Both the position numbers and the translations under genes were made by a program. From Escherichia coli (GTDB taxonomy: Bacteria > Pseudomonadota > Gammaproteobacteria > Enterobacterales > Enterobacteriaceae): a stretch of 64,000 bases of DNA. The notes beneath the pieces were generated by a model. It did no database searches and was not told the DNA's origin. It was given only the letters and a program-made list of their open reading frames with translations. Location of the stretch: the NCBI RefSeq assembly GCF_003790525.1, contig NZ_CP033635.1, one strand, 5' to 3'. Every line of letters begins with the position of its first letter. Positions within the stretch are counted from its first letter, which is position 1. Below are positions 1-19,561 of this stretch, piece by piece.

Positions 1-542
1 TTGTTGATGACGCGACTGTCCTGCCGAACTTTCAGGACGATACAGTCAAGATAAACAATGGGGTAAACAGCATCCAGTGGTCTGTTTTGCCATTCTACAA
101 CCTGCTCCATCACGGCATCGGTGACCTTTGATATCAGTGCCGGTGAAACATCTGCGTCATACAGTTCTTTGAACGCAGTAGCTATCTCACGGGTGGTCAT
201 CCCTTTGGCATACAACGAGAGGATCTGGTTATCCATCCCGGTAATACGGGTCTGATTTTTCTTTACCAGTTGTGGTTCGAAGGTACCGTCACGATCGCGC
301 GGAGTACGCAGTTCCAGTGGACCGTCGCCTGTGATAACGGTCTTTGTGTAATAACCGTTGCGGGAGTTAGCTCCTGGTCTGGACTGATTTTTCTCATACC
401 CAAGATGGTGTGTCATCTCTGCATTGAGAGCGGCTTCAACGCTGAGCTTTTTCAGCAGCCGATCAAACTGACTGAGGTCTTCAGGGGTTTTGAGGTTTTT
501 GGCCAGTTCGTTAGCCAGAGCCTGTAACTGTTTTTCGTCCAT
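1..542 (-). CDS. tnpA: IS256-family transposase, N-terminal ~180 codons (3' part beyond window start)
   Basis: Same sequence as the N-terminal part of the 401-aa transposase at 47230..48435 (MDEKQLQALANELAKNL...). Confidence 0.85.
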   Translation of the reverse strand, partial: MDEKQLQALANELAKNLKTPEDLSQFDRLLKKLSVEAALNAEMTHHLGYEKNQSRPGANSRNGYYTKTVITGDGPLELRTPRDRDGTFEPQLVKKNQTRITGMDNQILSLYAKGMTTREIATAFKELYDADVSPALISKVTDAVMEQVVEWQNRPLDAVYPIVYLDCIVLKVRQDSRVIN

Positions 543-614
543 AAATTAACCTTCATTTGATGCTGGATTGAACATATCAAAATCAGGCAATTACACAAAT
601 CTATGTACAGGCTC
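1..614 (-). mobile_element. IS256-family insertion sequence (IS1414-like), partial copy running off the window start
   Basis: 1..614 matches 47894..48507 (right end of the complete copy) with about one mismatch; identity stops exactly at 614. Confidence 0.85.
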
Positions 615-3600
615 GTCGGGTGACAGGAGTCCATTGTGGACGGCTGGCATTCGTCTTCAGCAAACGCACCTCCAGTTCCCCTTCGCCAAATACCGACTGA
701 ACCAAATCAGCTGTCAAGGCGTCCCGATTGGGCGCTCGGGGTATCTGTCCCCTGGCTATCCACTGCTGCAAGCGGCTGCTGGCAAAACCCCTGAGATCAG
801 CGGCAACATCATTCAACCGGTCGGTCATTTTAATAATGGGCCGACCAGGCAGTACGGGGCAATCCTCAGGAATTTTGACCGACATCGCGCGCCTGAGAAG
901 CTTAATCGCCCCTTCCAGATGAGCAGTCAGATGGGTGACAGTCAGATCAATCGAACGTTGGAATTGCTCGAGGCTGTCCTGCACAGCTTCGAATACCTGC
1001 GAGATCCCTGTACCGACCCTCTCCAAATCGCCCAGCACTTCATGATAAGTTGCGATTGAGTCCAACTGCCGTAAGTATTCCTGACTGGCTCGGGCGTCTG
1101 GATCCTTGGCCAACTCTTCTTCGATGCGTTTGCGGAATTTTCCCCAGACCGTAGAGACGCGCATATTTTGCTGTTTTAGCGTTTCATTTAAACCGGCATA
1201 CACTTGGCATTGTGCAGCCAGATCGTCAGCATATTCTGTGATGCTCAGGATCCTACCAGGTAGACCTGCGGCAGAGCTCGGCGTAATGGGCTGGATCATC
1301 GCTTGAGCTGTTTTGGCGTTCTGTAGCCGCTCTTTCACATTTTCAATCTTTCTCAACAGCAGTGTCTTTTGTTCCAGTAGGAACTTGATCTGGTGTTCAA
1401 TCGCATAAAGGTTATTGACGATTTCAGCCAGAGACGTTTGGATTGCCTCTATCTCAATGGGCTTCTCTTCCCAGACAAAATCCTCGTCAAGTGCTTTACT
1501 AGCCTCCTCACAGCTTTGGGAAAATTTTTGCAGAGTTACCTGAGAGCTAATTAGATTTTGCGTGAATTGCTTTTGCTGTTCTTTGAGGCGTACGATGCTG
1601 TTATTAATTACCGTTAGCTCATTGATGGCCGCAGCTTTTACCTCATCCGGATATGTATTGTAGGTGGGTTGAGCGGTCAAACGATCAGAGGCGTAACGTT
1701 GTACCTGTTCAGCATCTTTCAGTTGTTGCTTGAGAACGGTCACTTGATCACCGTTGGCTGCTTCGAGCAATTTTTTGTGCGCCTGAGCAGCCATCTCATG
1801 GGCATATTCAGGGCTTCGTCCTTCCATACCTTCAGTCGCCGTAATCTCTGAATAGAACGGTTCGTTACACAGATTACTCCAGCTACCTATCTGGATAATT
1901 AAAAGGGTTTTCTCGGAGCGTTTGTTCTTCTCGAGCTCGCTCAGCCGTTCCAGCCTCTCTCTCTGGGTGTAAAGAGTGTTCTTGCTTCGCTGAATCTGTG
2001 CAGCTAACTGCTCCAGTTTCATTATCGCCGTTTCACGCTTCGCCCATTCTTTTTCTACAAAAAGACTCACTTTATCATGTGCTTTTTCTGCCTGAATTTT
2101 CTGCTGTTGGGCGTTGTTTAAACGCACCTGGACATCTCTCTTCTCGTCACGCAGTGTTTGCTCATCATGCTCAGCTTGCTTAAGTGCTGCATCAGCATTT
2201 TCCAGTATTAATAGAGCCAGCTCCCGTTGGTCAAGCAGTCCCGCCCAATGCTTACCATACTGTTCGTAATGCCGACTCCAGTCATTCCTGAAAGATTCCA
2301 GTACTTTAAGGGCGCTCTCCGTAGCCTTCACACTGACTTCCTGCGACGCTACAGTATTCTCCAGGTCTTGCAGCCGGGTTTCGTAAGCGGCCTGGCTATA
2401 TCCGTGCTTATCGGGGTTTGAGAGGACAACCTGTACTAATTCAGACGTTTCTCGGCGGAGATCTTGTGCTTCATCCAGCAAGTAAATAGCAATAGGTGCC
2501 TTCTTCCAGGGTAGGATCTCACTAATTTTATGGACCTGTTCAAACGTTACATTGTCGAGTGCGACCAGACTCAGGTAGCGGCCAGGGTTCTGATCGATCA
2601 CCGCTGCAATCTTTTGTGCATCATCGTTGTAAGCAGAGGCCAAATAGTGTGGAAATGTCCATAGCTTATCCCGTGCAATGCCCGCAGCATAAAACGCTTC
2701 AAGTGCCTCATTGACCTGCTTAGCAACCAGTTCATGTCCCGTCACCCTCAACTCGTCCAGTTCGTGCCGGGCTTGCAGTAAACGCTCTTTCATTCCATTC
2801 AGCGTTTGAGCGTTCGCATTCAATACTTTGTCGAGCTGCAATCCACACAGCTCGCTGTGCCAACTCGTGTCTTCAATATCCAGATCATGTCGCGTTGACG
2901 TTGGCAGTTTTTGATAGTTTTTTGCTAAAACTAAAGCACTATCCACAGCCGACTGGTGTTTTTGTTCAGCCAGAATGAGTTTTTGCTGGGCCTCACTTTT
3001 CTCAATTGATGCCTCCCGCACAACATTCAGCTGTGCTTCCAGCGCCTGCTCTTTCTGATGAAGAATTGTATTAGCCAGTTCTTCACTCTGCTTTGCATCG
3101 CGTAAGGTTAATTCCAGTCGGTATTGGGCTGCTACTGGTGTTTCATCCTTCTGGATCAACCCAGCTTCACATAATTCATTCCGTTGCGATTCGCCCTGAA
3201 ATTTGTCTCTTTTATATCCGTCACGCTCCGTTTCCAGACCACCCAACGTCTTTTGTATTTTATCGTATGACTGTCTGAGGACATGGCTTTCCCTGTCCAT
3301 CTGCCCTAATTCTTCCTCAAGCGTAGCCTCCTGCTGGCGATGTCTGTCGATTGCCCACTCTAATGTGCCCAAGGCTTCGCCAGCAGTACGCTCGAAAATC
3401 ACCTGTAGCGGCCTTTCCGTTTCACTTTGGAATACCTTCAGATCTTCATCTGCCTGGCGGTACTCATTCAGGGCCTTAGCATAGGCTTTGTAGTCTATAG
3501 CAGCGTGAGTAATCTCAATCTGGCGCTGATTGGTATCGGCCTCGTCTTGAAGCGCATCGACTATCGCTTTTTGTTTGTTGAACCGATGCTGCACGAGATC

Positions 3601-4686
3601 ATATTCAAGCAGTGCTCTGCGCTTACCTAACTGCTCACGCAGAGACATCGCCTGGCCAATATGCGTTTGCAAACTATCCATGTTATCTTCAAGCTGTGTC
3701 TGTTCAACCTGAGCATCCCCGACAAAGGCTGCGAGATCGCGCATTGCTTCTCGGAAGCCATCATCCAGCAGTTGCTGCTGTGCCTGGATGCTTTCCAGCT
3801 GTTTAGCCGGATCAAGAAACGCCAGCCAGTTAGCCAGCACATCCTTCAGGAAGGACTCGTTACGACGAATCCCCTCTAACTCTCCCTGACGTTCAACTTC
3901 ATGCGCTACCAGTTCCCGCAGCCGCTCAGCCGCATCTTTAGACATGGTGCAGGCGAAGAACGCGCCAAGGAAATCATGTTCAGTTTTGTATTCGATAAAA
4001 CGGGTCAGGCCACCTTCTTCGGAGTTGAAGGTCACCATTGTTTTGATAAGATCAACGTTAATTTGTTGTTCCAGTAAAAATGCGCGCCACTCGTTCTGTC
4101 TGGTGGTTTTACGCCAATGCATACCGCCTTCACTACCGGCCTTGAGATTAAGCCAGCTATCAAAACTGCGCAGGCTATTGGCATAGGGGCGCAGCTCAGA
4201 ATTGCGTTCCGCGCGGGAATAAGAAGGGACTTCATCAAACGGCGCGCCCATCAGGGAGTCGGGCGCATCACAAATAAACAGTGTGCGGTCAACATCATCT
4301 CCATTACGCTGATGAGCATGTCCTAGTAATAACGTTTGTCCTGATTCATTGACCATCTCAACCAAAACAACAGAGAGTTCTTTATAGAAGTAATTGCGGT
4401 AGTGGTATTCACTCTGGCGATGATTTGCCAGATATTGGGTGAAGTCACTAACGGACGGCTCAAAAATCGATAACAGCAGCGCGATGTAGGTCGACTTACC
4501 ACCCCCATTCACAAGCTGCTGATAAGTACTGGTCACCACCTTCGCATTCCTGACGGGCGAGCGCAGGCCTTCAACAACAGGGCTACTGACCGCTTGAGAC
4601 AGGCCAATATAGTCCAGTGTGAGGTCCTTGTAGAAAGCTTCTTCATGGCCTGCACCATCCATATAAACCCGTTTAATCAGCCACAT
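601..4686 (-). CDS. SMC-like P-loop ATPase with long coiled-coil arms (JetC/MksB/MukB-like); 3' end runs into the IS, probably C-terminally truncated
   Basis: 1361-aa ORF; N-terminal P-loop LVNGGGKSTY; >1000 aa of E/Q/K/L/R-rich heptad-like sequence; no C-terminal signature/Walker B head visible; last 4 codons and the stop (601..614) are IS-derived. Confidence 0.5.
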   Translation of the reverse strand: MWLIKRVYMDGAGHEEAFYKDLTLDYIGLSQAVSSPVVEGLRSPVRNAKVVTSTYQQLVNGGGKSTYIALLLSIFEPSVSDFTQYLANHRQSEYHYRNYFYKELSVVLVEMVNESGQTLLLGHAHQRNGDDVDRTLFICDAPDSLMGAPFDEVPSYSRAERNSELRPYANSLRSFDSWLNLKAGSEGGMHWRKTTRQNEWRAFLLEQQINVDLIKTMVTFNSEEGGLTRFIEYKTEHDFLGAFFACTMSKDAAERLRELVAHEVERQGELEGIRRNESFLKDVLANWLAFLDPAKQLESIQAQQQLLDDGFREAMRDLAAFVGDAQVEQTQLEDNMDSLQTHIGQAMSLREQLGKRRALLEYDLVQHRFNKQKAIVDALQDEADTNQRQIEITHAAIDYKAYAKALNEYRQADEDLKVFQSETERPLQVIFERTAGEALGTLEWAIDRHRQQEATLEEELGQMDRESHVLRQSYDKIQKTLGGLETERDGYKRDKFQGESQRNELCEAGLIQKDETPVAAQYRLELTLRDAKQSEELANTILHQKEQALEAQLNVVREASIEKSEAQQKLILAEQKHQSAVDSALVLAKNYQKLPTSTRHDLDIEDTSWHSELCGLQLDKVLNANAQTLNGMKERLLQARHELDELRVTGHELVAKQVNEALEAFYAAGIARDKLWTFPHYLASAYNDDAQKIAAVIDQNPGRYLSLVALDNVTFEQVHKISEILPWKKAPIAIYLLDEAQDLRRETSELVQVVLSNPDKHGYSQAAYETRLQDLENTVASQEVSVKATESALKVLESFRNDWSRHYEQYGKHWAGLLDQRELALLILENADAALKQAEHDEQTLRDEKRDVQVRLNNAQQQKIQAEKAHDKVSLFVEKEWAKRETAIMKLEQLAAQIQRSKNTLYTQRERLERLSELEKNKRSEKTLLIIQIGSWSNLCNEPFYSEITATEGMEGRSPEYAHEMAAQAHKKLLEAANGDQVTVLKQQLKDAEQVQRYASDRLTAQPTYNTYPDEVKAAAINELTVINNSIVRLKEQQKQFTQNLISSQVTLQKFSQSCEEASKALDEDFVWEEKPIEIEAIQTSLAEIVNNLYAIEHQIKFLLEQKTLLLRKIENVKERLQNAKTAQAMIQPITPSSAAGLPGRILSITEYADDLAAQCQVYAGLNETLKQQNMRVSTVWGKFRKRIEEELAKDPDARASQEYLRQLDSIATYHEVLGDLERVGTGISQVFEAVQDSLEQFQRSIDLTVTHLTAHLEGAIKLLRRAMSVKIPEDCPVLPGRPIIKMTDRLNDVAADLRGFASSRLQQWIARGQIPRAPNRDALTADLVQSVFGEGELEVRLLKTNASRPQWTPVTRRACT

Positions 4687-4688
4687 AC

Positions 4689-5585
4689 TTAAATCTCCGT
4701 CAAGCGTTGCGTTTCTGTGGTTCCAGTTGTAACTGGACGTTCATTGAGCGAAGGAAACTCCAGGGTATCTGCTAATGCTGCAAGATCGCTTTCAGCTAAA
4801 TCGGGCGACCGTTCTTCTACGGCTGGACTGATGCTCATGACAAAGCGCACCGTCTCTTCGATGCCAGTATGGCGCAGATAATGTTTGAGTTTTTGGGTCG
4901 GATACCAGTCGGACTCTCCCGACAGACTGCTGTCTTCGGCCAGAAAGCCTTCCTCCTGCAGCAGTTGTATCCAGCGCGTTGCCATTTCTGTTTGCGAGCG
5001 AATACTTGAGACACGCCCTACCTTTTCGTCGTGTATACGGGGAATACGTTCTTCCTGCACAAACCTGGCCGCCATAAGTAGGCCATCTACGGTATCGTCA
5101 CCCTCGGCCTTGCGCTGGGCAATCACCTGGTCGGCAACATTATTGAGCCTGGCTACCACCGAGGCGGCATTAATGGCGTTACTCTGACCGAACTCGACAC
5201 GAACGGTGTCTGGAGTTGGAAACAAATCAGCCAGCAACGCAATCAGAGTTAAGCCTGCAAACAGGCGCTGTTCTTTCCGTTCCTTACCCTGTTGCTCAGC
5301 CATTGTTTCAGGTAGCAAGCGTTTGTTCAGCCAACCCAAAGATGGGGAAAACGGACCTCGGCCATCTGCAGCCAGTAATACCCCGTAGGTCTCATGAATC
5401 CCAAGATACCGCAATTTCATACCTGTCGCGACGCCACGGATAATCTCTGTGAACAGGGCATCACCTTGCAGATCAAGAGCACGTTGAATCAGCTCATCCC
5501 CCATTTTATATCCCAGTGAATTCATAATTGCCTGCGTGGCAATCTCGGCGTAGCGTTTAGTTTGTTGATGCGCGTTGTCGTACAT
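4689..5585 (-). CDS. Middle subunit of the SMC-like operon (KITE/JetB/MksE-like by position and size)
   Basis: 298-aa ORF tightly packed (2-3 bp spacing) between the kleisin-like and SMC-like genes; no motif confirmed. Confidence 0.4.
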   Translation of the reverse strand: MYDNAHQQTKRYAEIATQAIMNSLGYKMGDELIQRALDLQGDALFTEIIRGVATGMKLRYLGIHETYGVLLAADGRGPFSPSLGWLNKRLLPETMAEQQGKERKEQRLFAGLTLIALLADLFPTPDTVRVEFGQSNAINAASVVARLNNVADQVIAQRKAEGDDTVDGLLMAARFVQEERIPRIHDEKVGRVSSIRSQTEMATRWIQLLQEEGFLAEDSSLSGESDWYPTQKLKHYLRHTGIEETVRFVMSISPAVEERSPDLAESDLAALADTLEFPSLNERPVTTGTTETQRLTEI

Positions 5586-5587
5586 AA

Positions 5588-7054
5588 CTACTCCTCAAAG
5601 GGGTATAAGGGAGCAACCGTTAACAGTTTGATATTGTTAGCCCGCCAGAGCGTTGTTTCGATAGCGCCGTCTATCTCCACTTCTATTGCGGGATCGCTGT
5701 TAGCTGCCAGGCTGCCAATATGGAGTAAACAAACCTGTTGCTCTTGTTCGGATAATTCTTCGCCCTCATAGGCGTCAAAAACATCTCTAAAGCTCACATG
5801 CCCCCAATTCTTCAATCGGTCACTAACCCAATCGCTGCATTTTTTAATGACAGATTCAGGGATACCTCGCAGGTTGGTTTCAATAGCTACAGGCTGATCG
5901 GTGAGGTCCTGTATCTCATGTGGAAGCGCCTGTTCAAATCTATCGAGATAAAGGTTCAGCAGCGCCTCAAGGTCAAACAGAATGTGCCGATCATCATCCT
6001 GTCTTCGGGGAGCCAACAGGCGTGCGGTGAGATCATCGATTTCCTTTTCGACAGTGTCGGGGGAATGAGACAGCAAGGGCTTGAGTGCACCTTTTTCCAG
6101 TGTTTCCCGAAAGAGGGTATTATCTCTGGGAATAATGAGTTTCAGACGAGCTCGCTCAAAATCTTTGTTAACATCAAGTAAGCAGTCTTGATAGCGCTGC
6201 GTAAAAGCGCAGACCTCAGCAAAAATCTCCTGTGCCCTACGTAGCTTATTTAATTTGTCGGGATTTATTTTCGAACTTCCTTCAACCAGCATTTCGGTAA
6301 TGGCCGACATTGAGTTCTGGATATGTTCCAAAACCTCTCGGGTTTTATCAAAGGAATCATTGAGTACGGGACGGATATCGTGTGCATAAGATGCACTCAA
6401 ATCACCAGACTGGGCGGCACGCACTTTCATCCGCATTCCAATCAGATATTGCTCCAGTTGCCGCTGTGTTGATTGGATCTGGTGTACTGCCTTGTCGATC
6501 TCTCCGCGACGGATGGTTTTAAGCGTGCGCCAGGCCAGAATCGCAGCGCGTTCTATCGGCGTTTCATCCAAGCGCAGGGTATAGAACAACATTCCTTCAT
6601 CAGTCAGCGACCAGAGAATATCATCTGAGCCGGATAGCTGGTCATAGCGTACCAGACGGACTATCTGCTCTTCGGAATGCGTTCGTTGCGAGAAATCATA
6701 ATAACGGAGGCGGAAAGGATCTTTGATCGCCGCAAAAATCTTGCTGGCCACTTGTGCGTAGTCGGGTTCTTCTTGTCCCGGATAGGCTTCATTGAGGTGC
6801 CCAACCAGACATAACTCCGCTTCCTTACGCGTCATTCCAGGCTGGCGCTCGCGGTCAGCATAATAAAGCATGGCGTCAAAGAGATACATGATTGCCGCCA
6901 GCGCATCAAGCTCAACACCATCGAACGGATTTCGCTGAAGGGCGCTATATATTGAATCCAGCGTCCGCACGACCAGTAAGGCGTGAGACTGAATAGACAG
7001 CTCACGACGTGCCATTGATTCATTACGAGCCTGCTCCAAAAACCCTAGCGACAT
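5588..7054 (-). CDS. First gene of the SMC-like operon (kleisin/JetA/MksF-like by position and size)
   Basis: 488-aa ORF; RBS GGGAG upstream of the ATG; operon order kleisin-KITE-SMC as in mukFEB/jetABC. Confidence 0.4.
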   Translation of the reverse strand: MSLGFLEQARNESMARRELSIQSHALLVVRTLDSIYSALQRNPFDGVELDALAAIMYLFDAMLYYADRERQPGMTRKEAELCLVGHLNEAYPGQEEPDYAQVASKIFAAIKDPFRLRYYDFSQRTHSEEQIVRLVRYDQLSGSDDILWSLTDEGMLFYTLRLDETPIERAAILAWRTLKTIRRGEIDKAVHQIQSTQRQLEQYLIGMRMKVRAAQSGDLSASYAHDIRPVLNDSFDKTREVLEHIQNSMSAITEMLVEGSSKINPDKLNKLRRAQEIFAEVCAFTQRYQDCLLDVNKDFERARLKLIIPRDNTLFRETLEKGALKPLLSHSPDTVEKEIDDLTARLLAPRRQDDDRHILFDLEALLNLYLDRFEQALPHEIQDLTDQPVAIETNLRGIPESVIKKCSDWVSDRLKNWGHVSFRDVFDAYEGEELSEQEQQVCLLHIGSLAANSDPAIEVEIDGAIETTLWRANNIKLLTVAPLYPFEE

Positions 7055-7099
7055 AACATTCTCCCTCTGAGACGGAAGCCACTATAGTACTCGCCCGCC

Positions 7100-7126
7100 A
7101 ATTAAGCAAAGAAACTTTGCTTAATT
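7100..7126. promoter_or_regulatory. Perfect 12-3-12 palindrome (AATTAAGCAAAG aaa CTTTGCTTAATT) in the divergent promoter region; candidate operator
   Basis: Read directly in the 175-bp AT-rich intergenic region between the divergently transcribed genes at 7054 and 7230. Confidence 0.5.
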
Positions 7127-7229
7127 TTTATTTATAGCAATGTTATTTGTTTTGATGTCATTCGCCTTCTATACTCAGTCGGTATATCAAACCGCAATTG
7201 ATTAACCTGCAAATAAGAATAAAACTGAT

Positions 7230-8123
7230 ATGTACTACTCAAAGTTTCTTGAGAAACACAAATCCCCCCTCAGCCACGCACAATGGTTGCGCTTGCGCTA
7301 TATTGAGCGCCAGCTACTGTGGGAACGAAAGGTCACTTCGCGCATGATTGCTGAAGAGTTTGGCGTCTCGGCGCAACAAGCTCGTACTGATGTAAGAACC
7401 TATATGGAGGTCGCTCCAGGCAATGCTATTGAGAAGGGGGCCGGCCGAAAAGGGTATTTCCCCAGTACGACGTTTACGCCTGTTTTGCTGGGAGACAACG
7501 ATCTGGTCTGGCGTACGACGGTAGAATTTCAACCGCCGCAAGCGGCCCACGCGCAGGAAATCCCGCTCATCCATCGCGCAGTGCATAGCCGCACGCTGGC
7601 AATTTTTTTGTCAGCAATCGAACAGAAAGGACAAGTAAAAGTGACTTATGCGTCAATGGAAAACCCGGAAGGCATATCTCGTACACTAAGCCCTACGGTA
7701 ATTATCACCGTTAACGGGCGTCAGCATGTGCGAGCCTATGACTGGGGAAGTTCGGCGTTTAAGGACTTTGTTTTGGCGCGATTTCTGGACTTGCCGGAAC
7801 TGATTGTTCCTGCACCCGCCCCGCCACGCAAAGATACCGCGTGGGAGGTCATAATCCCCGTGCGTTTTATAGCCAATCCAACACTAAACAAAGCGCAACA
7901 AGAGGTAATTAAGCGGGACTATTTACTTGAACCCTCTGAATTCAACATTCGTGCACCAATGATTTTTTATTTATGCCCTGAAAACAATCTGCCTAAAACA
8001 GATGATGAATATGCACAAGCTACTGACGCCAGCAGCCACGGCCCCTTTATCTACCCTGTTCTAGCTGTGCACGCCCAAACAGGGGAGCCTATTCATAAGT
8101 ACCGCCATGCAGGTGAGAGATAG
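7230..8123 (+). CDS. Putative HTH-WYL-type transcriptional regulator (BrxR/CapW-like architecture)
   Basis: 297 aa; N-terminal HTH-like segment (SRMIAEEFGVSAQQARTDVRTYME); central region resembling a WYL domain; divergent from the SMC-like operon. Confidence 0.45.
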   Translation: MYYSKFLEKHKSPLSHAQWLRLRYIERQLLWERKVTSRMIAEEFGVSAQQARTDVRTYMEVAPGNAIEKGAGRKGYFPSTTFTPVLLGDNDLVWRTTVEFQPPQAAHAQEIPLIHRAVHSRTLAIFLSAIEQKGQVKVTYASMENPEGISRTLSPTVIITVNGRQHVRAYDWGSSAFKDFVLARFLDLPELIVPAPAPPRKDTAWEVIIPVRFIANPTLNKAQQEVIKRDYLLEPSEFNIRAPMIFYLCPENNLPKTDDEYAQATDASSHGPFIYPVLAVHAQTGEPIHKYRHAGER

Positions 8124-8319
8124 ACATTCTGTTTACTAATAATTTATAGCCATTCACTGTTCCTGCATCATAGATATGGTGCAGCAACATTAAACACCAG
8201 CCATCTAAAAATTATGATTTATTAATTTCTGATTCAGTTAAATTCCTCTGAAAATAGATCCGTTATAGTTCCATGCATCTTTTGAAATCCCGACCAAATA
8301 ATGGGGTCGGCAAACATCT

Positions 8320-8520
8320 ATTTGAGACGTTGGTTCTCATCCTCAAGATCTTTGATTATTTTAATATCAGAAGATTCCATACCACCGTATCTGGACTTCC
8401 AGTTGTAGTAAGTGGCTCAGAGAAGCCTGCCTCCCGGCAGACATCTTTAACAGTTCGCCCGTATTCAAGCGATTTAATCACGGCGATAATCTGATGCTCA
8501 GTAAAAGGGGCTTTACGCAT
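8320..8520 (-). pseudogene. IS3-family orfA remnant (HTH transposase N-terminus), frameshifted
   Basis: Minus-strand translation MRKAPFTEHQIIAVIKSLEYGRTVKDVCREAGFSEP then, after a 1-nt frameshift, TYYNWKSRYGGMESSDIKIIKDLEDENQRLK; no orfB follows. Confidence 0.6.
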
Positions 8521-8594
8521 AGCGATCTCCTTCATTGGCAGATTGATTATGCCGGAGGATCTCTAAATGTTAATGGCACGATTATGCGGGATAT

Positions 8595-9500
8595 TTACAA
8601 TACCAGTCCAACCCTCAGCTTACTGCAATGCCCATCAAGAGGGATGGTCCACATTGACGTATCAAAATCGCTCTCTGACCAGCGAGCAAAACGCAGCTCA
8701 CTGGATCGAATAAAGATAAGCAGAGTGAGTTCTGTCGCCCAGCGGGTTAGCGGCCTGCCGGTATAGCTGTCTATTTTCTCAAGTAACTCAGGGATGCGCT
8801 TTAACTCCAGCGCCGGACGATGCTGTCGATTACTGGAAGCAACCGCCCCCGCCATCTCCTGCGCCGGATTGTAATGAATTAACCCGCTTTGCACTGCATA
8901 ACGCATGATGGCCGTGGTGCGCTGTTGAAGGCGGGAAGCCACTTCAAAACGTCCAGATTTCTCCACGGCTTTAATGGGAATTAACAGATCGCGGGTGCCC
9001 AGTTCAGCAATATTGCGAGCACCAATTGTTGGGAAGATATTGTCCTCCAGGCTCTTTTTTCCACGATTAGCATGATCTTCCGACCATTTTTGGTTTGTCA
9101 CGAGCCACTCTCTGGCAACCTTCTCGAAAGTAATAATCTCTTTCGCCTGCTCTTCTTTCACAGCACGTTTATGCTCACGAGGATCGATACCAGCAGCGAC
9201 CAGCTTTCTGGCCTCTTCCCTTTTCTTCCGCGCATCCGCCAGCGAAACATCCGGGTAAACGCCGAACGCCATCAAATGTTGTTTACCACCAAAACGGAAA
9301 CGAAATCACCAATACTTTGAACCGCCAGGTTTTACAAGTAAAGACATGCCGTCGCCGTCAACAAGTGAATACTCTTTCTCCTCTGACTTCACAGAACGAA
9401 CTTTAGTATCCGTTAGGGCAATAATGGTCTTCCTTCCATTGGTATCTCGTGAGTATACAAGCAATATCGAATCGGCAAATATACTCATAAGTATACTCAC
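8595..9500 (-). pseudogene. P4-type tyrosine integrase, frameshifted and lacking the catalytic C-terminal domain
   Basis: ORFs 9306..9500 and 8595..9275 together align with the N-terminal ~260 aa of the intact integrase at 19562..20827 (LTDTKVRSVK, FGVYPDVSLADAR, IMRYAVQ, SSELRFARW); ends just after WTIP. Confidence 0.85.
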
Positions 9501-9592
9501 AAGCCTGTTGATGTGGGTTGAGTCAGGTTGACTTCAGTTGAGAAGAAAAGCTGGAAAAGCCTTGCGTGGCGCGGATTTCAGGCATAAAAAAA

Positions 9593-9608
9593 GACCTCAG
9601 TTGAGGTC
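9593..9608 (-). terminator. Rho-independent terminator-like hairpin
   Basis: GACCTCAGTTGAGGTC palindrome preceded by an A-run on the plus strand (T-run on the minus strand). Confidence 0.45.
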
Positions 9609-9622
9609 TATTTACATACTTT

Positions 9623-9641
9623 TGGTGCGAAGGCCGGACTC
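9623..9641 (-). other. tRNA 3'-end-like remnant; probable att direct repeat at the junction of the two islands
   Basis: TGGTGCGAAGGCCGGACTC resembles the leuX 3' end TGGTGCCGAAGGCCGGACTCGAACC (one indel, one mismatch). Confidence 0.5.
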
Positions 9642-9819
9642 AAACATCAAAATAAGTTAATGATAAAAAACAAATAATAAAACACAACAATGAAATATGC
9701 CCCCTTTTGTGCCCCCACTGTTTTTCTGACCAATCTATTTTCAGCCCATCAATAAATCGGAAAGTTAAATCATTTTTAATCAGTAAGTTTGGATCCGTAG
9801 CTCGGCTCCAAACCAGTGC

Positions 9820-10140
9820 ATCTTTTATCCACATAAAAAATTTTTTTTCGAAAGAACTGTTCACACTGTTCACCTTTCTGTTTTCTCCTTTTATTTCATA
9901 GTGATAGGTGGTGAATAATGGGTGAAGGGTGAACATTCGATTCTTCACCTCCGGCATTCTGCCGGTGTGACTTGTGCAGGGGATTAATTTCCCGTGCTGA
10001 AATCACACCGGAAGAAAAAAGTTTTTTTTGATTTGATTGTTCACACTGTTCACCTTTCGTTTTTCTCTTTTAATTTCAGTGTGATAACGGGTGAATATAC
10101 GGTGAAGGGTGAACAGTGGATTGTTCACCTTCGGGGAATT
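9820..10140. repeat. P4 crr-like region: two tandem ~120-bp direct repeats carrying TGTTCACC/GGTGAACA octamers
   Basis: TGTTCACACTGTTCACC at 9858..9874 and 10037..10054; GGTGAAGGGTGAACA in both units; lies just past the 3' end of the alpha gene. Confidence 0.7.
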
Positions 10141-10179
10141 CAGGGATAAAAAAAGACCGGCAGATGCCGGTCAGGTGGG

Positions 10180-12513
10180 TCAGGCTGTTGCAGGGTCGTC
10201 ACATTTTGGCAGCCAGTCGCCGTAGCTTTCCTCTTTCAGCGTCAGGTTGGTCTGTATCCCCTGTTTGGTATGGCGCTTCTCGTAATTCAGTCCGTATTCC
10301 TTCAGCATCACCGGCAGCCCCAGCCCGAACATTTTCAGACTGAGTACATTCCGGTAGCCGTTTGCCTCCATGTAGGCCAGATAGGCGTGATAGAGGTATT
10401 TACGGTAATTGCGCGGGATGATACTGGCGTTCCCCATATACATGCCGCTGGTCTGCGGCAGGGTTTCCAGATAGCCGATAAAATCAAACGTCGGGTCGGC
10501 ATCCCGTTTGATGTTCAGTGCCTCGTCTGAGTTCTGCTGGGACTGAAGCAGTGACCGGGCGAGCATCGGGTCGCTGAACTTCTGCATCAGGTGACGCACG
10601 ATGACCGCCAGCTCGCGGGTGATTTTGTCCTTAAGCTGCGGGTCGCGCTCCTGCGGGGCTATCTGTTCCGGGAAGTGAATAATCACCCGCCGGCGTGACA
10701 CGCCGCCGCTGCGGTCGGTGAAGCGCATCGGGTTATTGTTCACGGCCAGAATTACCGCCGGGATATGCGTGGAGTATGCATCCCGGTATTTCGGGTCAAC
10801 GGACACCGCATCGCCGCCGGTGATGGCCTTGAGTCCGGCACCGTCGCCGCTCCATTTTTCCTGGTCCGGCAGGCGTATCAGTGAGAAGCCAGTTAACGCG
10901 GCACGTTCACGCGGGGATTCCAGCGTCTCGATGGTGGCCGACGTGGCGTTATCCTCCCCGGCCAGCAGGGTGGCTATTTCGGCCATGATACTTTTGCCGC
11001 TGCCGCCGGGACCGGTCACCTCCAGAAAGAGCTGCCAGTCGTAGCGGTTTGCCAGCACCATAAACAGTGCGGCCAGAATCACGTCGCGTTTTTCCGCACG
11101 GCCACCGGCGGCACGGTCAAGCCAGCACCAGAACGCGGGGGCGTGGGTCTCCAGCGTTTCACCGTCCACCGGCGGGGTGAAATCCACATCGCACAGGGTG
11201 CGCATCCAGTGTGACGGACTGTGCGGGTGGAACGTGCCGTTCTGCGTGTCGAGCACGCCGTTACGAAAGCCAATCAGGCGGCGGGAGGGGGCTTCCTGCT
11301 GCGGAATAATCAGCTTCAGGGTGTCCACCACGGAGGCCACCTTCCCGGAGGAGAACGGCGCGCGCAGACGCTGAAACAGCCCGGCCACATCCCGGGCAAA
11401 GTCCTGTGGTGGCAGCACCTTCCAGACACCATTTTCATAACGGGACAGAAGCTGGCCGTTGGCATCGACCGCGAGCGCCTCGCCGTAATGCTCATAGATA
11501 CGCATGGCCTTTTCGCTGGTACTCATGGCGGAAAACTCCGCTTCACTCATGGTGTCGAACGGGCTTTCAGCCGGTGGCCGGATGGCATCGTAAATGGCCT
11601 TACGGGTGGCCTCCCCGCCGTACTGCGTGAAGGCATCATTCCAGTCACCGAAGACCGGTGGCAGGGCAACAACACCTTCACACGCATCTGCGGCTGCGGC
11701 GGCTTTTTTCTGGCCATCACCGCTGAGGTCACGGTCAGCGGCAAGGACAATCTGACAGGCGGGGTGCTTCTGCCGGGCAAGGCTGGCCAGAGAAAGGAGG
11801 TTCACGGAAGAAAGCGCCACCATCACCGTTTCACCGGTCAGGTGATGCACGGTAAGTGCGGTCGCGTATCCCTCCGCTATCCACAGACGTTTTCCGGCCT
11901 GATTCTGTCCTTCAAGGATGTGACAGGTGCCCCTGACCTGTCCGCCTTTCAGGGTGCGCTTACGGCCGTCAGCACTGATTAACTGAAGGTTAACCAGTTC
12001 GCCGCTGTCGTCATACAGTGGCACCACAAGGTCACCGGCGCGCCAGCTCACGCCACCGGCTCTGTGTGTGCCGGTCAGCATCCGGCATTCCCGGCCGGGA
12101 AAGCCCTTGCGGGTCAGGTAGGCGTTACCGGTTCCGGGACGGGTTTTCGCCATCAGGGTTTGTGCCAGTGCGGCGGCGTTCTTCCGGGCAGCGTCTGTTT
12201 CAGCACCGGCGGCAGCCGTCACTGCCGGGTCAGCCGGGGGCAGGCTGCCGGTCACGGCAGCCACCTTTGTGGCCGCGTCGGACGGGGAGACACCAAACAC
12301 CTTTTCAACCAGTTTCAGGCCGTCACCGGCACCACACTGATTGCAGTACCAGGTGCCGCGCCCCTCCCTGTCATCAAAACGGAAGCGGTCACTCCCGCCA
12401 CAGACCGGACAGGGCTGATGACGGTTCTTCAGCACCTGAATCCCCAGCGCCGGGAGAATACGCGGCCAGTGGCCGAGCGCATGGCTGACGGTGGCGGTTA
12501 CGTTCATTTTCAT
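10180..12513 (-). CDS. P4 alpha-type primase-helicase
   Basis: 777 aa (the length I recall for P4 alpha); N-terminal zinc-binding CPVCGG...CNQCG; P-loop GPGGSGKS. Confidence 0.9.
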   Translation of the reverse strand: MKMNVTATVSHALGHWPRILPALGIQVLKNRHQPCPVCGGSDRFRFDDREGRGTWYCNQCGAGDGLKLVEKVFGVSPSDAATKVAAVTGSLPPADPAVTAAAGAETDAARKNAAALAQTLMAKTRPGTGNAYLTRKGFPGRECRMLTGTHRAGGVSWRAGDLVVPLYDDSGELVNLQLISADGRKRTLKGGQVRGTCHILEGQNQAGKRLWIAEGYATALTVHHLTGETVMVALSSVNLLSLASLARQKHPACQIVLAADRDLSGDGQKKAAAAADACEGVVALPPVFGDWNDAFTQYGGEATRKAIYDAIRPPAESPFDTMSEAEFSAMSTSEKAMRIYEHYGEALAVDANGQLLSRYENGVWKVLPPQDFARDVAGLFQRLRAPFSSGKVASVVDTLKLIIPQQEAPSRRLIGFRNGVLDTQNGTFHPHSPSHWMRTLCDVDFTPPVDGETLETHAPAFWCWLDRAAGGRAEKRDVILAALFMVLANRYDWQLFLEVTGPGGSGKSIMAEIATLLAGEDNATSATIETLESPRERAALTGFSLIRLPDQEKWSGDGAGLKAITGGDAVSVDPKYRDAYSTHIPAVILAVNNNPMRFTDRSGGVSRRRVIIHFPEQIAPQERDPQLKDKITRELAVIVRHLMQKFSDPMLARSLLQSQQNSDEALNIKRDADPTFDFIGYLETLPQTSGMYMGNASIIPRNYRKYLYHAYLAYMEANGYRNVLSLKMFGLGLPVMLKEYGLNYEKRHTKQGIQTNLTLKEESYGDWLPKCDDPATA

Positions 12514-12527
12514 GGTGTTGTTCTCCT

Positions 12528-12848
12528 TCAGTGCAGTACCGGCGCTTTTATGTGACGGGCACAGAGTTCATCCATCACAACCAGCCCGAGAAAGGACAGC
12601 GACGGCGCGGCCTTCAGGGGGCCGGATTCCATTAAATCTTCCAGCAGGGCACAGGCTATCTGACGCCCTTTTTCCTCACCGTGCTGGCGCAGATAAAAGC
12701 CTTCCAGCTCAGCGGCGATGGCCGCCTCCAGTGACTCAAGGGTGAGATGCGGGTAGCGGTGCTGACGTTCGCACACGGTCAGCCAGGCACAGGCGACAGC
12801 GCGACGGTAAAGGGCAGCGCGTAAGACGGGCGGTAAGGGTGTTTTCAT
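12528..12848 (-). CDS. Hypothetical protein, P4-like accessory ORF
   Basis: 106-aa ORF immediately upstream of alpha on the same strand. Confidence 0.55.
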
Positions 12849-12983
12849 TTGTTTTCCTCCCTGTGACAGATGACTGCATTCCGTGCCGGTTGCATTAACT
12901 GATAAGGCATATCTGCGTCTCCTGAAGACGTGCGTATCCCTGCGCGAATACGCACATTTAATTTTTCGGGTGTCGTTTTTTAA

Positions 12984-13439
12984 TTACAGATAATTGCGGT
13001 AACTGTTATCCGGGGTGATTTCCGGGTCAGGCTCCGTGCGGGGAATTTCCCGCCATTCCCGCGCCACCGGTGCCGCCCGGCTGACCGGAACAGTGTCCTG
13101 CGGGTAAATATCCAGATATTTCTCCCGCCATTTCTGTAATTCCGGGTCTCCGGCCATTTCTTTCAGTACCGCATGCCGGTTTACGGGGCTGCGTTTGAAC
13201 AGGTCAGGACGGTCACAGGTAAATTCCCGCAGAAAACGCCCCAGCGGGATGTCTGTGGTGCGCCCGTCGGCGAGGATACGCACAAGGATACTGAATTTAC
13301 GGCGGTACGGGTTCCAGACAATGTCCGGGCAGCGGTACGGCATTTCCCACGGAATACCGTCTTCCAGAATGCCGACCACGGCCACATCGGGAAAACCGGC
13401 AGAACGGTAAATCTCACCGGGCTGGGGAAAATCAAACAT
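12984..13439 (-). CDS. Hypothetical protein, P4-like accessory ORF
   Basis: 151-aa ORF in the same operon orientation. Confidence 0.55.
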   Translation of the reverse strand: MFDFPQPGEIYRSAGFPDVAVVGILEDGIPWEMPYRCPDIVWNPYRRKFSILVRILADGRTTDIPLGRFLREFTCDRPDLFKRSPVNRHAVLKEMAGDPELQKWREKYLDIYPQDTVPVSRAAPVAREWREIPRTEPDPEITPDNSYRNYL

Positions 13440-13800
13440 GCGTCCTGTCTCCCCGGTCTTTCTGCTGGGCGAGAAAATCGCGGCACAGGCCTTTGGCTTT
13501 CAGCTCATTCAGCACAAAATCAATATCTTCATTCAGGTAGCTGAAAATATGCGGAATGTAGAGCTGATGCAGGCCGGAGAGTTCACGGTGAATCAAATCA
13601 CCCCCAACAAACTGGGATACGGCGCTGGCGCGGTTGAGCTTATGGTAAGCCTCAATGCTGAGGTGTTCACGGGCGTCATGACGCGCTGAGACGGTCTGAG
13701 GGGCTTTTTTATTACGCACGGGACACCTCCACCACCGGCAGACGGGCAGCAAGGGAGAGCACATAGTCACGGACAAGGGAACGGCGGGCGCTGCGTTCAT
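13432..13800 (-). CDS. Hypothetical small protein in the position of P4 epsilon; start uncertain
   Basis: ORF 13432..13959 with internal ATG candidates at 13800 and 13764; overlaps another frame (13712..14302). Confidence 0.3.
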
Positions 13801-14298
13801 CACCGGCGACGGTGCGAAGCATGCAGATACGGGGATGACGGTCTGCGCGACGGACAGCCGCAAACACAAAGACAAATTCAGGGTGTGAGGGGGTAAGGGT
13901 TGTAGCCATAAGGCAGCCTCCTTCGAGTAGCAAATAACTGCTATCGCCGGAGTTCTCACGCTCGATGGCGATAGCCCAGACGGGGGTGAGAATACCGGCC
14001 TCGAAGAATACCGGCCAGCCCGGAGGCTGCCCCGCCTGAGCTACCATTGACTCAGTGGCATAACATGCGATTGCGAACAGGATAATACCTGCACGGCAAA
14101 CCACACGCCACACCATAATCTGGCGCTCTGTGGCGTTGATTGCGACACAAAAAAAGACGCATGGCGCGTCATATGTCGCCTTCGAGTTACACGGGTTCTC
14201 ACGCCCGGCTGCCGATTTTGCGGCAACGGAAAGACTATATCCGCAAATGCCGGAAAAAGGCAAGCCAGAAAAAGGGAGTTTTTGCAGAGCGGGCATCA

Positions 14299-14565
14299 TC
14301 ATGCGTCATACCCCCGTTTGCGTCCGGCAATGCGGCCGGCCATCCATGCGGTGACTTCAGAGTGCAGCCAGGCCACATTTTTACCGCCAAGACTCACCTG
14401 CGGCGGAAATTCCCCCTTACGGATGAGTTCGTAGATGGTCGAGCGTGACAGGCCGCACAGGTGCATCACTTCCGGAAGACGCAAAAAACGCTCCTGTGTG
14501 ATGTCCGGCTGCGGCATCAGTGGCGTCACAGGGGCGGGAGACGGGGAAGAAAAAACAGCTTGCAT
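14299..14565 (-). CDS. AlpA-family phage transcriptional regulator / excisionase-like protein
   Basis: 88 aa; HTH segment [27 protein letters not shown] typical of the AlpA family. Confidence 0.75.
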
Positions 14566-14844
14566 CGGGCTACCTCGTTAATGTCCATACAGCACCGGAT
14601 AAGTCTGTCCGGCTTCGGGTAGCGCTTTATTTTGTGAATATTTTCAGCAGACGCAACAGGGGGGATTTGTTCCGGCAGCCTTACAATGCTTGTGTGTTTT
14701 TTGTTCATCTCCACTTAAAGTCATTTAAAGCCACTTAAAGCAATTCGTAATTTTTATAGTGAAATACAAATCGTTTTTTCTTATTCATTCCCGGCGAATT
14801 AATAAAAACAAACAGTAGTAAACAGCACAAAAAGCCCATCAACG

Positions 14845-14950
14845 GGTGAACAGTGGTGAACAGACGGTGAACAGTCATTACTGCGATTGTTCACCCTTTA
14901 ACTTACTGTATTACTTATCTTTTTTCTTATGGCGAACAGAGGTGAACAGT
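14845..14950. repeat. P4 ori-like iteron cluster (at least 5 GGTGAACA/TGTTCACC octamers)
   Basis: GGTGAACAGTGGTGAACAGACGGTGAACAG, then TGTTCACCC, then GCGAACAGAGGTGAACAG; about 4.7 kb from the crr-like repeats. Confidence 0.65.
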
Positions 14951-15117
14951 AAAATATAAAAAAACAAACAGTAAGACGGTTTTTCCTGCGACCTTTTCCT
15001 GGCTTGCCGGTGTGAGGATGAGTCTCCTGTGTCAGGGCTGGCACATCTGCAATGCGTCGTGTTGTTGTCCGGTGTACGTCACAATTTTCTTAACCTGAAG
15101 TGACGAGGAGCCGGAAA

Positions 15118-15852
15118 ATGTCTGACAACACCATCCCTGAATATCTGCAACCCGCGCTGGCACAACTGGAAAAGGCCAGAGCCGCCCATCTTGAGAACGC
15201 CCGCCTGATGGATGAGACCGTCACGGCCATTGAACGGGCAGAGCAGGAAAAAAATGCGCTGGCGCAGGCCGACGGAAACGACGCTGACGACTGGCGCACG
15301 GCCTTTCGTGCAGCCGGTGGTGTCCTGAGCGACGAGCTGAAACAGCGCCACATTGAGCGCGTGGCACGCCGGGAGCTGGTACAGGAATATGACAATCTGG
15401 CCGTGGTGCTGAATTTTGAACGCGAACGCCTGAAAGGGGCGTGTGACAGCACGGCCACCGCCTACCGGAAGGCACATCATCACCTGCTGAGTCTGTATGC
15501 AGAGCATGAGCTGGAACACGCCCTGAATGAAACCTGTGAGGCGCTTGTCCGGGCAATGCATCTGAGCATTCTGGTACAGGAAAATCCGCTCGCCAACACC
15601 ACCGGGCATCAGGGCTACGTCGCACCCGATAAAGCTGTCATGCAGCAGGTGAAATCATCGCTGGAACAGAAAATAAAACAGATGCAAATCAGCCTCACCG
15701 GCGAGCCGGTTCTCCGGCTGACCGGACTGTCAGCGGCAACACTCCCGCACATGGATTATGAGGTGGCAGGCACACCGGCACAGCGCAAGGTGTGGCAGGA
15801 CAAAATAGACCAGCAGGGAGCAGTGCTTAAGGCCAGAGGACTGCTGTCATGA
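15118..15852 (+). CDS. sid: P4 Sid-like capsid size-determination protein
   Basis: 244 aa from the ATG at 15118 (RBS GAGGAG); followed by delta and psu in P4 order. Confidence 0.7.
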   Translation: MSDNTIPEYLQPALAQLEKARAAHLENARLMDETVTAIERAEQEKNALAQADGNDADDWRTAFRAAGGVLSDELKQRHIERVARRELVQEYDNLAVVLNFERERLKGACDSTATAYRKAHHHLLSLYAEHELEHALNETCEALVRAMHLSILVQENPLANTTGHQGYVAPDKAVMQQVKSSLEQKIKQMQISLTGEPVLRLTGLSAATLPHMDYEVAGTPAQRKVWQDKIDQQGAVLKARGLLS

Positions 15853-16349: not shown

Positions 16350-16422
16350 GGGCTGCCGGTTAACACCGGCCGTCGCCGCACACCGTATTTTTATTCTTCA
16401 GCATGATGAGAAAGAGATAACG

Positions 16423-16995: not shown

Positions 16996-17159
16996 AATTC
17001 CCCGAAAATCCGCCCGTTTTTACTGAAAAAAGCCATGCATCGATAAGGTGCATGGCTTTGCATGCGTTTCCCTGCCTCATTTTCTGCAAACCGCGCCATT
17101 CCCGGCGCGGTCTGAGCGTGTCAGTGAAACTGCATTAAAACCGCCCCGCAAAGCGGGCG

Positions 17160-17178
17160 GGCGAGGCGGGGAAAGCAC
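17160..17178. other. P2/P4-type cos cohesive-end site
   Basis: GGCGAGGCGGGGAAAGCAC read directly; matches the P2/P4 cos sequence as I recall; sits after psu as in P4. Confidence 0.6.
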
Positions 17179-17368
17179 TGCGCGCATGATATAAAAGAGT
17201 ATTAAGAATTTTACAGAAACAGCTAATACAGACGCTGAAGTAAAATCATTGAGACCATTCGTGATTTGATGCAAAAAATTGCACAACATAAGCTCCTATG
17301 GTTCATAGTAATACTATTAAACCTATCTTTTCGTTGGTATATTACCCATTTTGTAATGGAGAATTGAA

Positions 17369-19501: not shown

Positions 19502-19523
19502 ATAGAAACTAACAATGAAAAGC

Positions 19524-19553: not shown

Positions 19554-19561
19554 TAATAATT

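What the first reader, a model, noticed from the sequence alone, without database searches (positions are those of the whole stretch)
601..7054. Kleisin/KITE/SMC-like three-gene operon (Wadjet/MksBEF-like layout) inside a decayed island, with the SMC gene interrupted by an IS
Gene order and sizes (488 aa, 298 aa, >=1361 aa with N-terminal P-loop and very long coiled coils) mirror mukFEB/jetABC. The SMC-like ORF has no visible C-terminal ATPase head and its last codons and stop come from the IS1414-like end at 614, so the 3' end is probably disrupted and no JetD-like nuclease gene is in the window. The sizes exceed typical JetA/B/C, so this could be a divergent or undescribed SMC-family system now inactivated.
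Basis: partly seen in the sequence, partly recalled or inferred. Interest (0 to 1): 0.7.

Follow-up and report, generated by a model that had tools for sequence, protein, structure and literature searches.

The report
IS1414-truncated type III Wadjet operon
This is a known anti-plasmid defence system (type III Wadjet, jetABCD) of an E. coli genomic island that an insertion sequence has cut off inside its motor gene, so it is almost certainly dead and is an ordinary finding.

Summary
Window 601-7054 (minus strand) holds three tightly packed ORFs of 488, 298 and 1361 aa, and window 1-614 is the end of IS1414.

The 488-aa and 1361-aa proteins match PADLOC's JetA3 and JetC3 models over their full lengths. 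The 298-aa protein is a divergent JetB, linked through remote relatives and a MukE-like tandem winged-helix model.

The IS-free allele is present in about 1-2% of complete E. coli genomes, for example SMS-3-5. There JetC is 1478 aa and is followed by a JetD3 Toprim nuclease gene.

In the window IS1414 sits after codon 1357, one residue before the ABC signature motif. The signature, Walker B and the rest of the head are lost, and the last four codons and the stop come from the IS. jetD is not in the window.

The rest of the module is base-for-base identical to the intact allele, so the event is recent.

Two side observations are worth noting. This operon is repeatedly broken by different IS elements in E. 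coli. All type III JetC proteins examined carry D-N-P instead of the catalytic D-E in Walker B.

The parts
1..614 (-). Partial IS1414 (IS256 family). The transposase reading frame runs from 543 leftwards off the window, and the terminal inverted repeat is at 585-614.
   Evidence: 100% identity over 1-614 to annotated IS1414 copies. Inverted repeats of 30 nt were defined on a full copy in L009, and the end of the element equals window 614.
601..4686 (-). jetC', a truncated type III Wadjet SMC-like ATPase. Native codons 1-1357 occupy 615-4686, followed by 4 IS-derived codons and an IS-derived stop (601-614). Walker A is present. The signature motif, Walker B and the remaining head are missing.
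   Evidence: PADLOC JetC3 PDLC00587 at 3077 bits, covering profile positions 1-1358 of 1478. The intact allele is 1478 aa and continues LEGSGGQ...FLLADNPLG.... The junction was mapped.
4689..5585 (-). jetB, a divergent type III KITE-like subunit of 298 aa.
5588..7054 (-). jetA, the type III kleisin-like subunit of 488 aa, apparently intact.
   Evidence: PADLOC JetA3 PDLC00564 at 1136 bits, covering 1-488 of 488. It is identical to the SMS-3-5 allele.
7100..7126 (.). Perfect 12-3-12 palindrome AATTAAGCAAAG-AAA-CTTTGCTTAATT in the jetA-brxR intergenic region. It is a candidate BrxR operator next to a conserved TATAGT box.
   Evidence: The core is identical in Photorhabdus and the half-sites are kept in Oceanimonas. 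Operator function is inferred, not shown.
7230..8123 (+). Divergently transcribed BrxR-family (WYL) regulator of 297 aa.
   Evidence: RefSeq names it a BrxR family HTH regulator or WYL domain protein. Precomputed Pfam gives WHD_BrxR, WYL and BrxR_CTD, and PADLOC gives WYL. The same divergent arrangement occurs in Photorhabdus and Oceanimonas.
8595..9275 (-). Integrase remnant that, with a transposase fragment beside it, marks the decayed right end of the Wadjet-carrying module. Identity to SMS-3-5 ends at 9647.
   Evidence: Annotated as pseudogenes in SMS-3-5. Pfam gives Arm-DNA-bind_3 and Phage_int_M on the 225-aa fragment. Window 615-9647 matches SMS-3-5 with a single mismatch.

Best explanation
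The locus is a type III Wadjet (JetABCD) anti-plasmid system with a divergent BrxR-family regulator. It is carried on an island stacked next to a P4-like satellite at tRNA-leuX of an E. coli-like chromosome.

By analogy with the characterised type I and type II systems, the intact system would work as follows. JetA (kleisin), JetB (KITE dimer) and JetC (a long-armed SMC-like ABC ATPase) form a loop-extruding sensor. The sensor recognises small circular DNA and licenses the Toprim nuclease JetD to cut it.

In this window IS1414 has inserted after jetC codon 1357 of 1478, one residue before the ABC signature motif. The encoded protein keeps Walker A and the coiled-coil arms. It lacks the signature motif, Walker B and the C-terminal head surface that a kleisin normally binds. 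jetD is separated from the operon by at least the IS and may be lost. The system is therefore non-functional, a recent pseudogenisation.

Shown here: gene identities, the exact junction, the intact allele, and the sequence identity of everything else. Inferred: the loop-extrusion and cleavage mechanism, BrxR control through the palindrome, and loss of function.
For: - JetA3 and JetC3 full-length PADLOC hits.
- JetC3 (1478 aa) and JetD3 in the IS-free allele of SMS-3-5.
- JetD has the Toprim motifs E...DxD and Pfam JetD_C.
- IS1414 identity and its exact end.
- The junction falls before LEGSGGQ.
- No jetC 3' end or jetD in the window.
- Only one mismatch to SMS-3-5 over 9033 nt, and it lies outside the jet genes.
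- The same junction occurs in three draft contigs.
- The four-gene architecture of about 490/270/1470/350 aa is conserved in divergent relatives from several phyla.
- JetB is linked to KITE proteins by transitive HMM hits and by fold.
- The literature states that Wadjet I and II use extrusion-cleavage and that type III is expected to but is uncharacterised (10.1101/2025.03.10.642339). It also states that Wadjet-III has long coiled coils (10.1101/2025.03.17.643644).
Against: - No function was tested.
- Type III Wadjet has not been reconstituted according to the papers read here, so the mechanism is by analogy.
- JetB gives no direct hit to any profile library, and its fold matches are weak (Foldseek E about 1e-2, TM 0.27-0.38).
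- Pfam and NCBIfam do not recognise JetA, JetB or JetC at all.
- The window starts inside the IS. Whether the jetC 3' end and jetD survive on the other side cannot be seen. In other strains IS hits in this operon are simple insertions.
- Type III JetC has D-N rather than D-E in Walker B, so its ATPase cycle may differ from type I.
Confidence: 0.92

Rival explanations
1. The three genes are a divergent or undescribed SMC-family system, not Wadjet.
For: Pfam, NCBIfam and PDB sequence searches find nothing for any of the three proteins. JetB has only 14 relatives among 1.84 billion cluster representatives.
Against: JetA3 and JetC3 hit PADLOC models end to end, and several different JetC3 models are hit. 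The intact allele ends with JetD3 / PF09983. RefSeq already labels the downstream gene as a Wadjet JetD-domain protein. The sizes equal those of other type III operons.
Confidence: 0.03
2. The truncated operon is still active as a nuclease-free MksBEF/MukBEF-like condensin.
For: jetA, jetB and the first 1357 codons of jetC are identical to the intact allele, and the promoter region is untouched. Nuclease-free MksBEF systems exist (background knowledge; mentioned in the introduction of 10.1101/2025.03.10.642339).
Against: The signature motif and Walker B, both invariant in the family, are deleted. ABC-type heads cannot sandwich or hydrolyse ATP without them (established knowledge of ABC/SMC ATPases). 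No relative ends there naturally.
Confidence: 0.03
3. The IS insertion is an adaptive, possibly reversible, loss: selection to switch off plasmid restriction so that plasmids can be acquired. On this reading it is not neutral decay. It is compatible with the best explanation and concerns the cause of the event.
For: At least eight different disruptions of this one 7.9-kb operon were seen. They are IS3 in jetC and in jetD, IS66/ISCro1, IS100 in jetA, IS21, IS1414, frameshift-like splits, and 5' deletions. About 19 of the 60 best E. coli records look disrupted. Spontaneous Wadjet mutations raised conjugation efficiency in Clostridium cellulovorans (PMC12287153, abstract). The rest of the operon is mutation-free, so the event is recent.
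Against: IS hits in accessory islands are common. The records are not phylogenetically independent. No plasmid-load comparison was made. Excision of IS1414 was not examined.
Confidence: 0.25
4. The junction is an assembly chimera between an IS copy and the jet operon.
For: IS elements are typical sites of misassembly, and no complete RefSeq E. coli genome has this junction.
Against: The exact truncated protein and the same junction base occur in independent assemblies, an NCBI draft and a Logan run. Their contigs read 92 and 29 nt into the IS1414 end.
Confidence: 0.01

Closest known systems
Type III Wadjet (JetABCD type 3 of Doron et al. 2018; PADLOC JetA3/B3/C3/D3). This classification is cited from background knowledge and from 10.1101/2025.03.10.642339.
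   Same: Gene order jetA-jetB-jetC-jetD in the intact allele. Sizes of about 490/270-300/1470/350 aa. Full-length JetA3, JetC3 and JetD3 HMM hits. JetD_C Toprim nuclease. Long-arm SMC-like ATPase.
   Different: The window copy lacks the last 121 codons of jetC and lacks jetD. Its JetB belongs to a rare gammaproteobacterial branch that PADLOC's JetB3 models do not detect directly.
Type I Wadjet / JET nuclease of E. coli GF4-3 (JetABCD), the structurally and biochemically characterised system
   Same: The same four roles (kleisin, KITE, SMC, Toprim nuclease) and a presumed extrusion-cleavage logic. JetD3 gives weak hits to JetD1 models.
   Different: No detectable sequence similarity between JetA, JetB or JetC and solved type I chains. 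JetC is about 340 aa longer. Walker B is D-N-P instead of D-E. No type III structure was found by sequence search of the PDB.
MukBEF / MksBEF(G) condensins
   Same: Operon logic of kleisin-KITE-SMC. The JetB model's best structural matches are MukE chains.
   Different: No MukF, MukE or MukB profile hits. This is a defence-island gene set with a dedicated nuclease and a BrxR regulator, not a chromosome-segregation locus.
BrxR/WYL-regulated defence islands (BrxR of BREX; cited from background knowledge)
   Same: A divergently transcribed BrxR-family regulator with an inverted repeat in the shared promoter region.
   Different: Here the regulated cargo is Wadjet III. Binding and regulation were not tested.

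Membership tests
Wadjet type III (JetABCD) | JetA of type III (profile match) | tested here: met
   PDLC00564 JetA3, E = 0, 1136 bits, 1-488 of 488. The kleisin fold itself was not modelled.
Wadjet type III (JetABCD) | JetB: direct profile match to JetB3 | tested here: not met
   No PADLOC hit even at E <= 10, and no Pfam hit.
Wadjet type III (JetABCD) | JetB: a KITE-like tandem winged-helix protein encoded between jetA and jetC | tested here: met
Wadjet type III (JetABCD) | JetC: a complete SMC-like ABC ATPase (Walker A, long arms, signature, Walker B) | tested here: not met
   The window ORF stops at native residue 1357. The signature GSGGQ (1360-1364) and Walker B FLLADNP (1391-1397) of the intact 1478-aa allele are absent. 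The feature is met in the IS-free allele.
Wadjet type III (JetABCD) | JetD Toprim nuclease gene directly downstream of jetC | tested here: not met
   Absent from the whole window. It is present in the intact allele: PDLC00593 at 807 bits, PF09983, with conserved E...DxD. What lies beyond the IS in this genome is unknown.
Wadjet type III (JetABCD) | Restriction of circular plasmid DNA | not testable with these tools
   Needs transformation or conjugation assays.
Canonical SMC/ABC ATPase head | Walker B hhhhD-E with a catalytic glutamate | tested here: not met
   D-N-P is invariant in all 21 type III JetC tails examined. Type-I-like JetC proteins from the same scan have MDEAF.
MukBEF | MukF/MukE/MukB profile or sequence similarity | tested here: not met
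   No Pfam, NCBIfam or PDB sequence hits. Only a weak fold resemblance of JetB to MukE.
IS1414 (IS256 family) | Sequence identity including the terminal inverted repeat | tested here: met
   614 of 614 nt identical to annotated IS1414 copies. The inverted repeat ends at window 614.

The most novel reading that the evidence does not exclude
Type III Wadjet motors may run on a non-canonical ATPase site. Every type III JetC examined has Asn in place of the Walker B catalytic Glu (hhhhD-N-P-x-G) and no H-loop His. These were 21 sequences from Gammaproteobacteria, Desulfobacterota, Verrucomicrobiota and Actinomycetota. In canonical SMCs this change resembles a hydrolysis-dead 'EQ' mutant.

If that is real and functionally meaningful, type III would sense or extrude DNA with a different ATP cycle from types I and II. 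Separately, the repeated IS hits in this operon could mark selection in E. coli to shed plasmid immunity.
Probability: 0.3. Interest if true: 0.55.

Novelty: already known. Interest (0 to 1): 0.15.

Why it matters
For annotation, the three 'hypothetical' or 'coiled-coil' genes should be labelled jetA, jetB and a jetC pseudogene. The strain should not be scored as Wadjet-positive, because a defence-finder that counts JetA and JetC hits could over-call it.

Biologically it is one more example of IS-mediated loss of a plasmid-restriction system. It would matter mainly if the recurrent disruptions prove to be selected, for example in lineages that acquire resistance plasmids.

The family-wide D-N Walker B is a concrete, testable handle on the uncharacterised type III Wadjet mechanism.

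Tried and rejected
- Pfam on JetA, JetB, both halves of JetC and the JetB alignment gave no significant family. NCBIfam gave nothing.
- PDB sequence and profile searches for JetA, JetB, JetC and the JetB alignment gave only chance hits.
- The first AF2 run on JetB, with a shallow alignment of close homologues, failed (pLDDT 39.8). It was repeated with remote homologues added.
- A word-indexed homologue search with the JetC C-terminal fragment returned only fragments.
- I tried to see the far side of the IS in four ways.
  - No complete RefSeq E. coli genome carries the junction.
  - Draft contigs with the junction stop inside the IS.
  - A look-up of JetD returned only other alleles.
  - A look-up of the predicted 105-aa jetC 3' ORF found other truncations, with breakpoints at operon nt 6036 and 6052 and not adjacent to IS1414.
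- Whether this is a simple insertion or an IS-bounded deletion therefore stays open.
- The sigma-70 consensus scan found no promoter in the jetA-brxR spacer. The conserved TATAGT was seen only in the alignment.
- A literature search for Wadjet together with leuX found nothing.
Full report
**Observation.** The minus strand of window 601-7054 carries three ORFs of 488 aa (5588-7054), 298 aa (4689-5585) and 1361 aa (601-4686), separated by 2-nt gaps (translations). The large ORF has a Walker A motif (NGGGKST, residues 60-66). Window 1-614 is 100% identical to annotated copies of IS1414, an IS256-family element. On a full copy the 30-nt terminal inverted repeats place the element's end exactly at window 614. 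The ORF reads native residues 1-1357 and then R-A-C-T-stop, from one native base plus the IS end GAGCCTGTACATAG.

**Identity of the genes.**

- Against PADLOC, the 488-aa protein is JetA3 (PDLC00564, 1136 bits, end to end).
- The 1361-aa protein is JetC3 (PDLC00587, 3077 bits). It covers profile positions 1-1358 of 1478 and gives weaker hits to five other JetC3 models.
- Pfam, NCBIfam and PDB sequence searches see nothing in any of the three proteins.
- The 298-aa protein hits no library directly. It has only 14 relatives among 1.84 billion cluster representatives and 63 close homologues in Gammaproteobacteria.
- Its 29-44% identical relatives hit PADLOC JetB3 models (best E = 1.5e-5). They lie between JetA3 and JetC3 genes in operons that end with JetD.
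- With those relatives in the alignment, AlphaFold gives a usable model (pLDDT 72, pTM 0.60) with two helix-plus-beta-hairpin modules.
- The four best Foldseek matches in the PDB are all MukE chains (probability 0.66-0.95, E about 1e-2 to 7e-2).
- I accept the 298-aa protein as a divergent KITE-type JetB, with moderate support.

**The intact allele.** Megablast against 5,426 complete E. coli genomes finds the operon in 94 genomes, and 64 of them hold at least 80% of it.

- In SMS-3-5, JetC is 1478 aa. It is followed by a 347-aa protein that RefSeq names a Wadjet JetD-domain protein, which scores 807 bits on JetD3.
- Alignment of five JetD relatives shows the Toprim signature (VENSD ... GDxD) conserved.
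- The intact JetC continues after residue 1357 with LEGSGGQ (ABC signature), FLLADNPLG (Walker B position) and IQLIYLTG. These stretches are the invariant blocks of the family.
- IS1414 therefore removes the whole second half of the nucleotide-binding site.
- A BLAST of the SMS-3-5 locus against the window finds no jetC 3' end or jetD anywhere in the 64 kb.
- Over 615-9647 the window differs from SMS-3-5 at a single base (9642), which lies outside the jet genes. The insertion is therefore recent, and nothing else in the operon has decayed.

**Is the junction real, and what lies beyond it?** The exact 1361-aa product is encoded on contigs of GCA_003686615.1 and of run SRR25608274. Those contigs read 92 and 29 nt into the IS1414 end and then stop. 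The junction is reproducible, but short-read assemblies break in the IS.

- No complete RefSeq E. coli genome has the junction.
- Look-ups of JetD and of a predicted 3' jetC ORF returned only other alleles.
- Whether jetC-3' and jetD sit just beyond the IS or were deleted is unresolved.
- In other strains, IS hits in this operon are simple insertions with both flanks kept.

**Context.** A BrxR-family WYL regulator (7230-8123, plus strand) is divergently transcribed from jetA.

- The 175-nt spacer contains a perfect 12-3-12 palindrome at 7100-7126.
- Its core is identical in Photorhabdus and its half-sites persist in Oceanimonas, next to a conserved TATAGT.
- I infer that it is the BrxR operator. 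This is not shown.
- To the right lie a transposase fragment and an integrase remnant (8595-9275) that are pseudogenes in SMS-3-5.
- A P4-like satellite follows at about 9.6-20.8 kb, ending at tRNA-Leu(CAA) leuX at 20979-21063.
- In SMS-3-5 the other side of the operon holds further defence genes: an HNH/ScoMcrA-type phosphorothioate-dependent endonuclease and type II Zorya. 'Decayed defence island' is a fair description.

**Mechanism.** According to 10.1101/2025.03.10.642339, type I and type II Wadjet restrict plasmids by an extrusion-cleavage reaction. JetABC senses the size and circularity of DNA and activates the Toprim nuclease JetD. The same paper says type III is expected to do the same but is uncharacterised. 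10.1101/2025.03.17.643644 notes that Wadjet-III has long coiled coils and lacks a hinge channel.

- By analogy, the intact E. coli system would work in this way.
- The window's copy cannot. It has no signature motif or Walker B, lacks the C-terminal head that kleisins bind (established knowledge of SMC-kleisin complexes), and has no adjacent nuclease gene.
- I put 0.92 on 'IS1414-inactivated type III Wadjet'.

**How typical is it?** Divergent operons recovered through JetB relatives have the following JetA/JetB/JetC/JetD sizes:

| Locus | JetA (aa) | JetB (aa) | JetC (aa) | JetD (aa) |
|---|---|---|---|---|
| L023 | 497 | 291 | 1469 | 352 |
| L025 | 497 | 274 | 1464 | 345 |
| L026 | 484 | 264 | 1476 | 346 |
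| L027 | 497 | 264 | 1474 | 357 |

A JetD-anchored scan of GTDB species representatives returned 41 loci. Where the upstream genes could be chained, 11 loci carry a JetC of 1459-1512 aa, usually with a JetB of about 240-300 aa and a JetA of about 480-560 aa, in Gamma- and Betaproteobacteria, Desulfobacterota and Verrucomicrobiota. Two more loci have longer upstream ORFs of 1623 and 1665 aa, the latter in Actinomycetota. The E. coli sizes of 488/298/1478/347 are thus standard for type III, not oversized.

**Side observations.**

- *Walker B.* All 21 type III JetC C-termini examined have hhhhD-N-P-x-G at the Walker B position and no histidine at the H-loop position. The roughly 1130-1157-aa JetC proteins of type-I-like operons caught by the same scan have the canonical LSGGE...VVMDEAF. 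I found no mention of this in the papers read. I did not search the literature exhaustively, and the catalytic base may be supplied from elsewhere.
- *Repeated disruption.* This operon is broken repeatedly in E. coli.
  - IS3 in jetC (tandem copies) and in jetD, IS66 in jetC, and IS100 in jetA.
  - IS3 and IS21 at further sites, and a split jetC.
  - 5' deletions that leave jetC-3' plus jetD, and odd C-terminal fragments.
  - In the 60 best records, 11 carry an IS inside the operon and about 8 more show frameshift-like splits.
  - These records are not phylogenetically independent, and I made no comparison with neighbouring genes or with plasmid load. Adaptive loss is a hypothesis only. PMC12287153 reports that spontaneous Wadjet mutations raise conjugation efficiency in a Clostridium, which makes the idea plausible.

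**Verdict.** It is, however, a known system that PADLOC detects and RefSeq partly annotates, in a known state of IS disruption. Novelty: already known. Interest: low (0.15).

Noticed in passing
Intact allele L001:5636-6000 (JetC residues ~1358-1478); also L023, L025, L026, L027 and L036-L075: All type III JetC tails examined (21 sequences, several phyla) have D-N-P-x-G at the Walker B position instead of D-E, and no H-loop histidine. Type-I-like JetC proteins from the same JetD-anchored scan have the canonical MDEAF. The catalytic chemistry of type III Wadjet may therefore differ.
   Followed up: partly
E. coli loci L005-L008, L012, L014, L015, L017, L028-L035: The same jetABCD operon is independently broken in other strains by IS3, IS66/ISCro1, IS100 and IS21, by frameshifts, and by 5' deletions that leave only the jetC 3' end plus jetD. 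About 19 of the 60 best complete-genome records look disrupted.
   Followed up: partly
window 7100-7126: A perfect 12-3-12 palindrome (AATTAAGCAAAG aaa CTTTGCTTAATT) lies between jetA and the BrxR-family gene. It is conserved in Photorhabdus and partly in Oceanimonas, next to a conserved TATAGT. It is a likely BrxR operator overlapping the jet promoter.
   Followed up: partly
window ~9650-20830, with tRNA-Leu(CAA) at 20979-21063: A P4-like satellite prophage (primase-helicase 10180-12513, Icd-like, ogr/delta-like, psu-like 16423-16995, integrase 19562-20827) is integrated at leuX. It carries a 710-aa cargo ORF (17369-19501) between psu and int. RefSeq calls that ORF 'MarR family', and it gives only weak CARF-like PADLOC hits (E about 2e-4). 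It may be a hotspot defence gene.
   Followed up: no
window ~29000-53000: Beyond yjgR (27408-28910) the window does not continue with lptG as strain Ec42 does. Instead it enters another island with CP4-like genes (YeeU/CbtA-type toxin-antitoxin, antirestriction, a YadA-like adhesin, GTPase, PTS genes). That island matches other E. coli only at about 90-95% identity.
   Followed up: no
window 543-603: The IS1414 transposase gene has the same orientation as the jet operon and starts 58 nt after the IS-derived stop of jetC'. Read-through from the jet promoter would transcribe the transposase.
   Followed up: no
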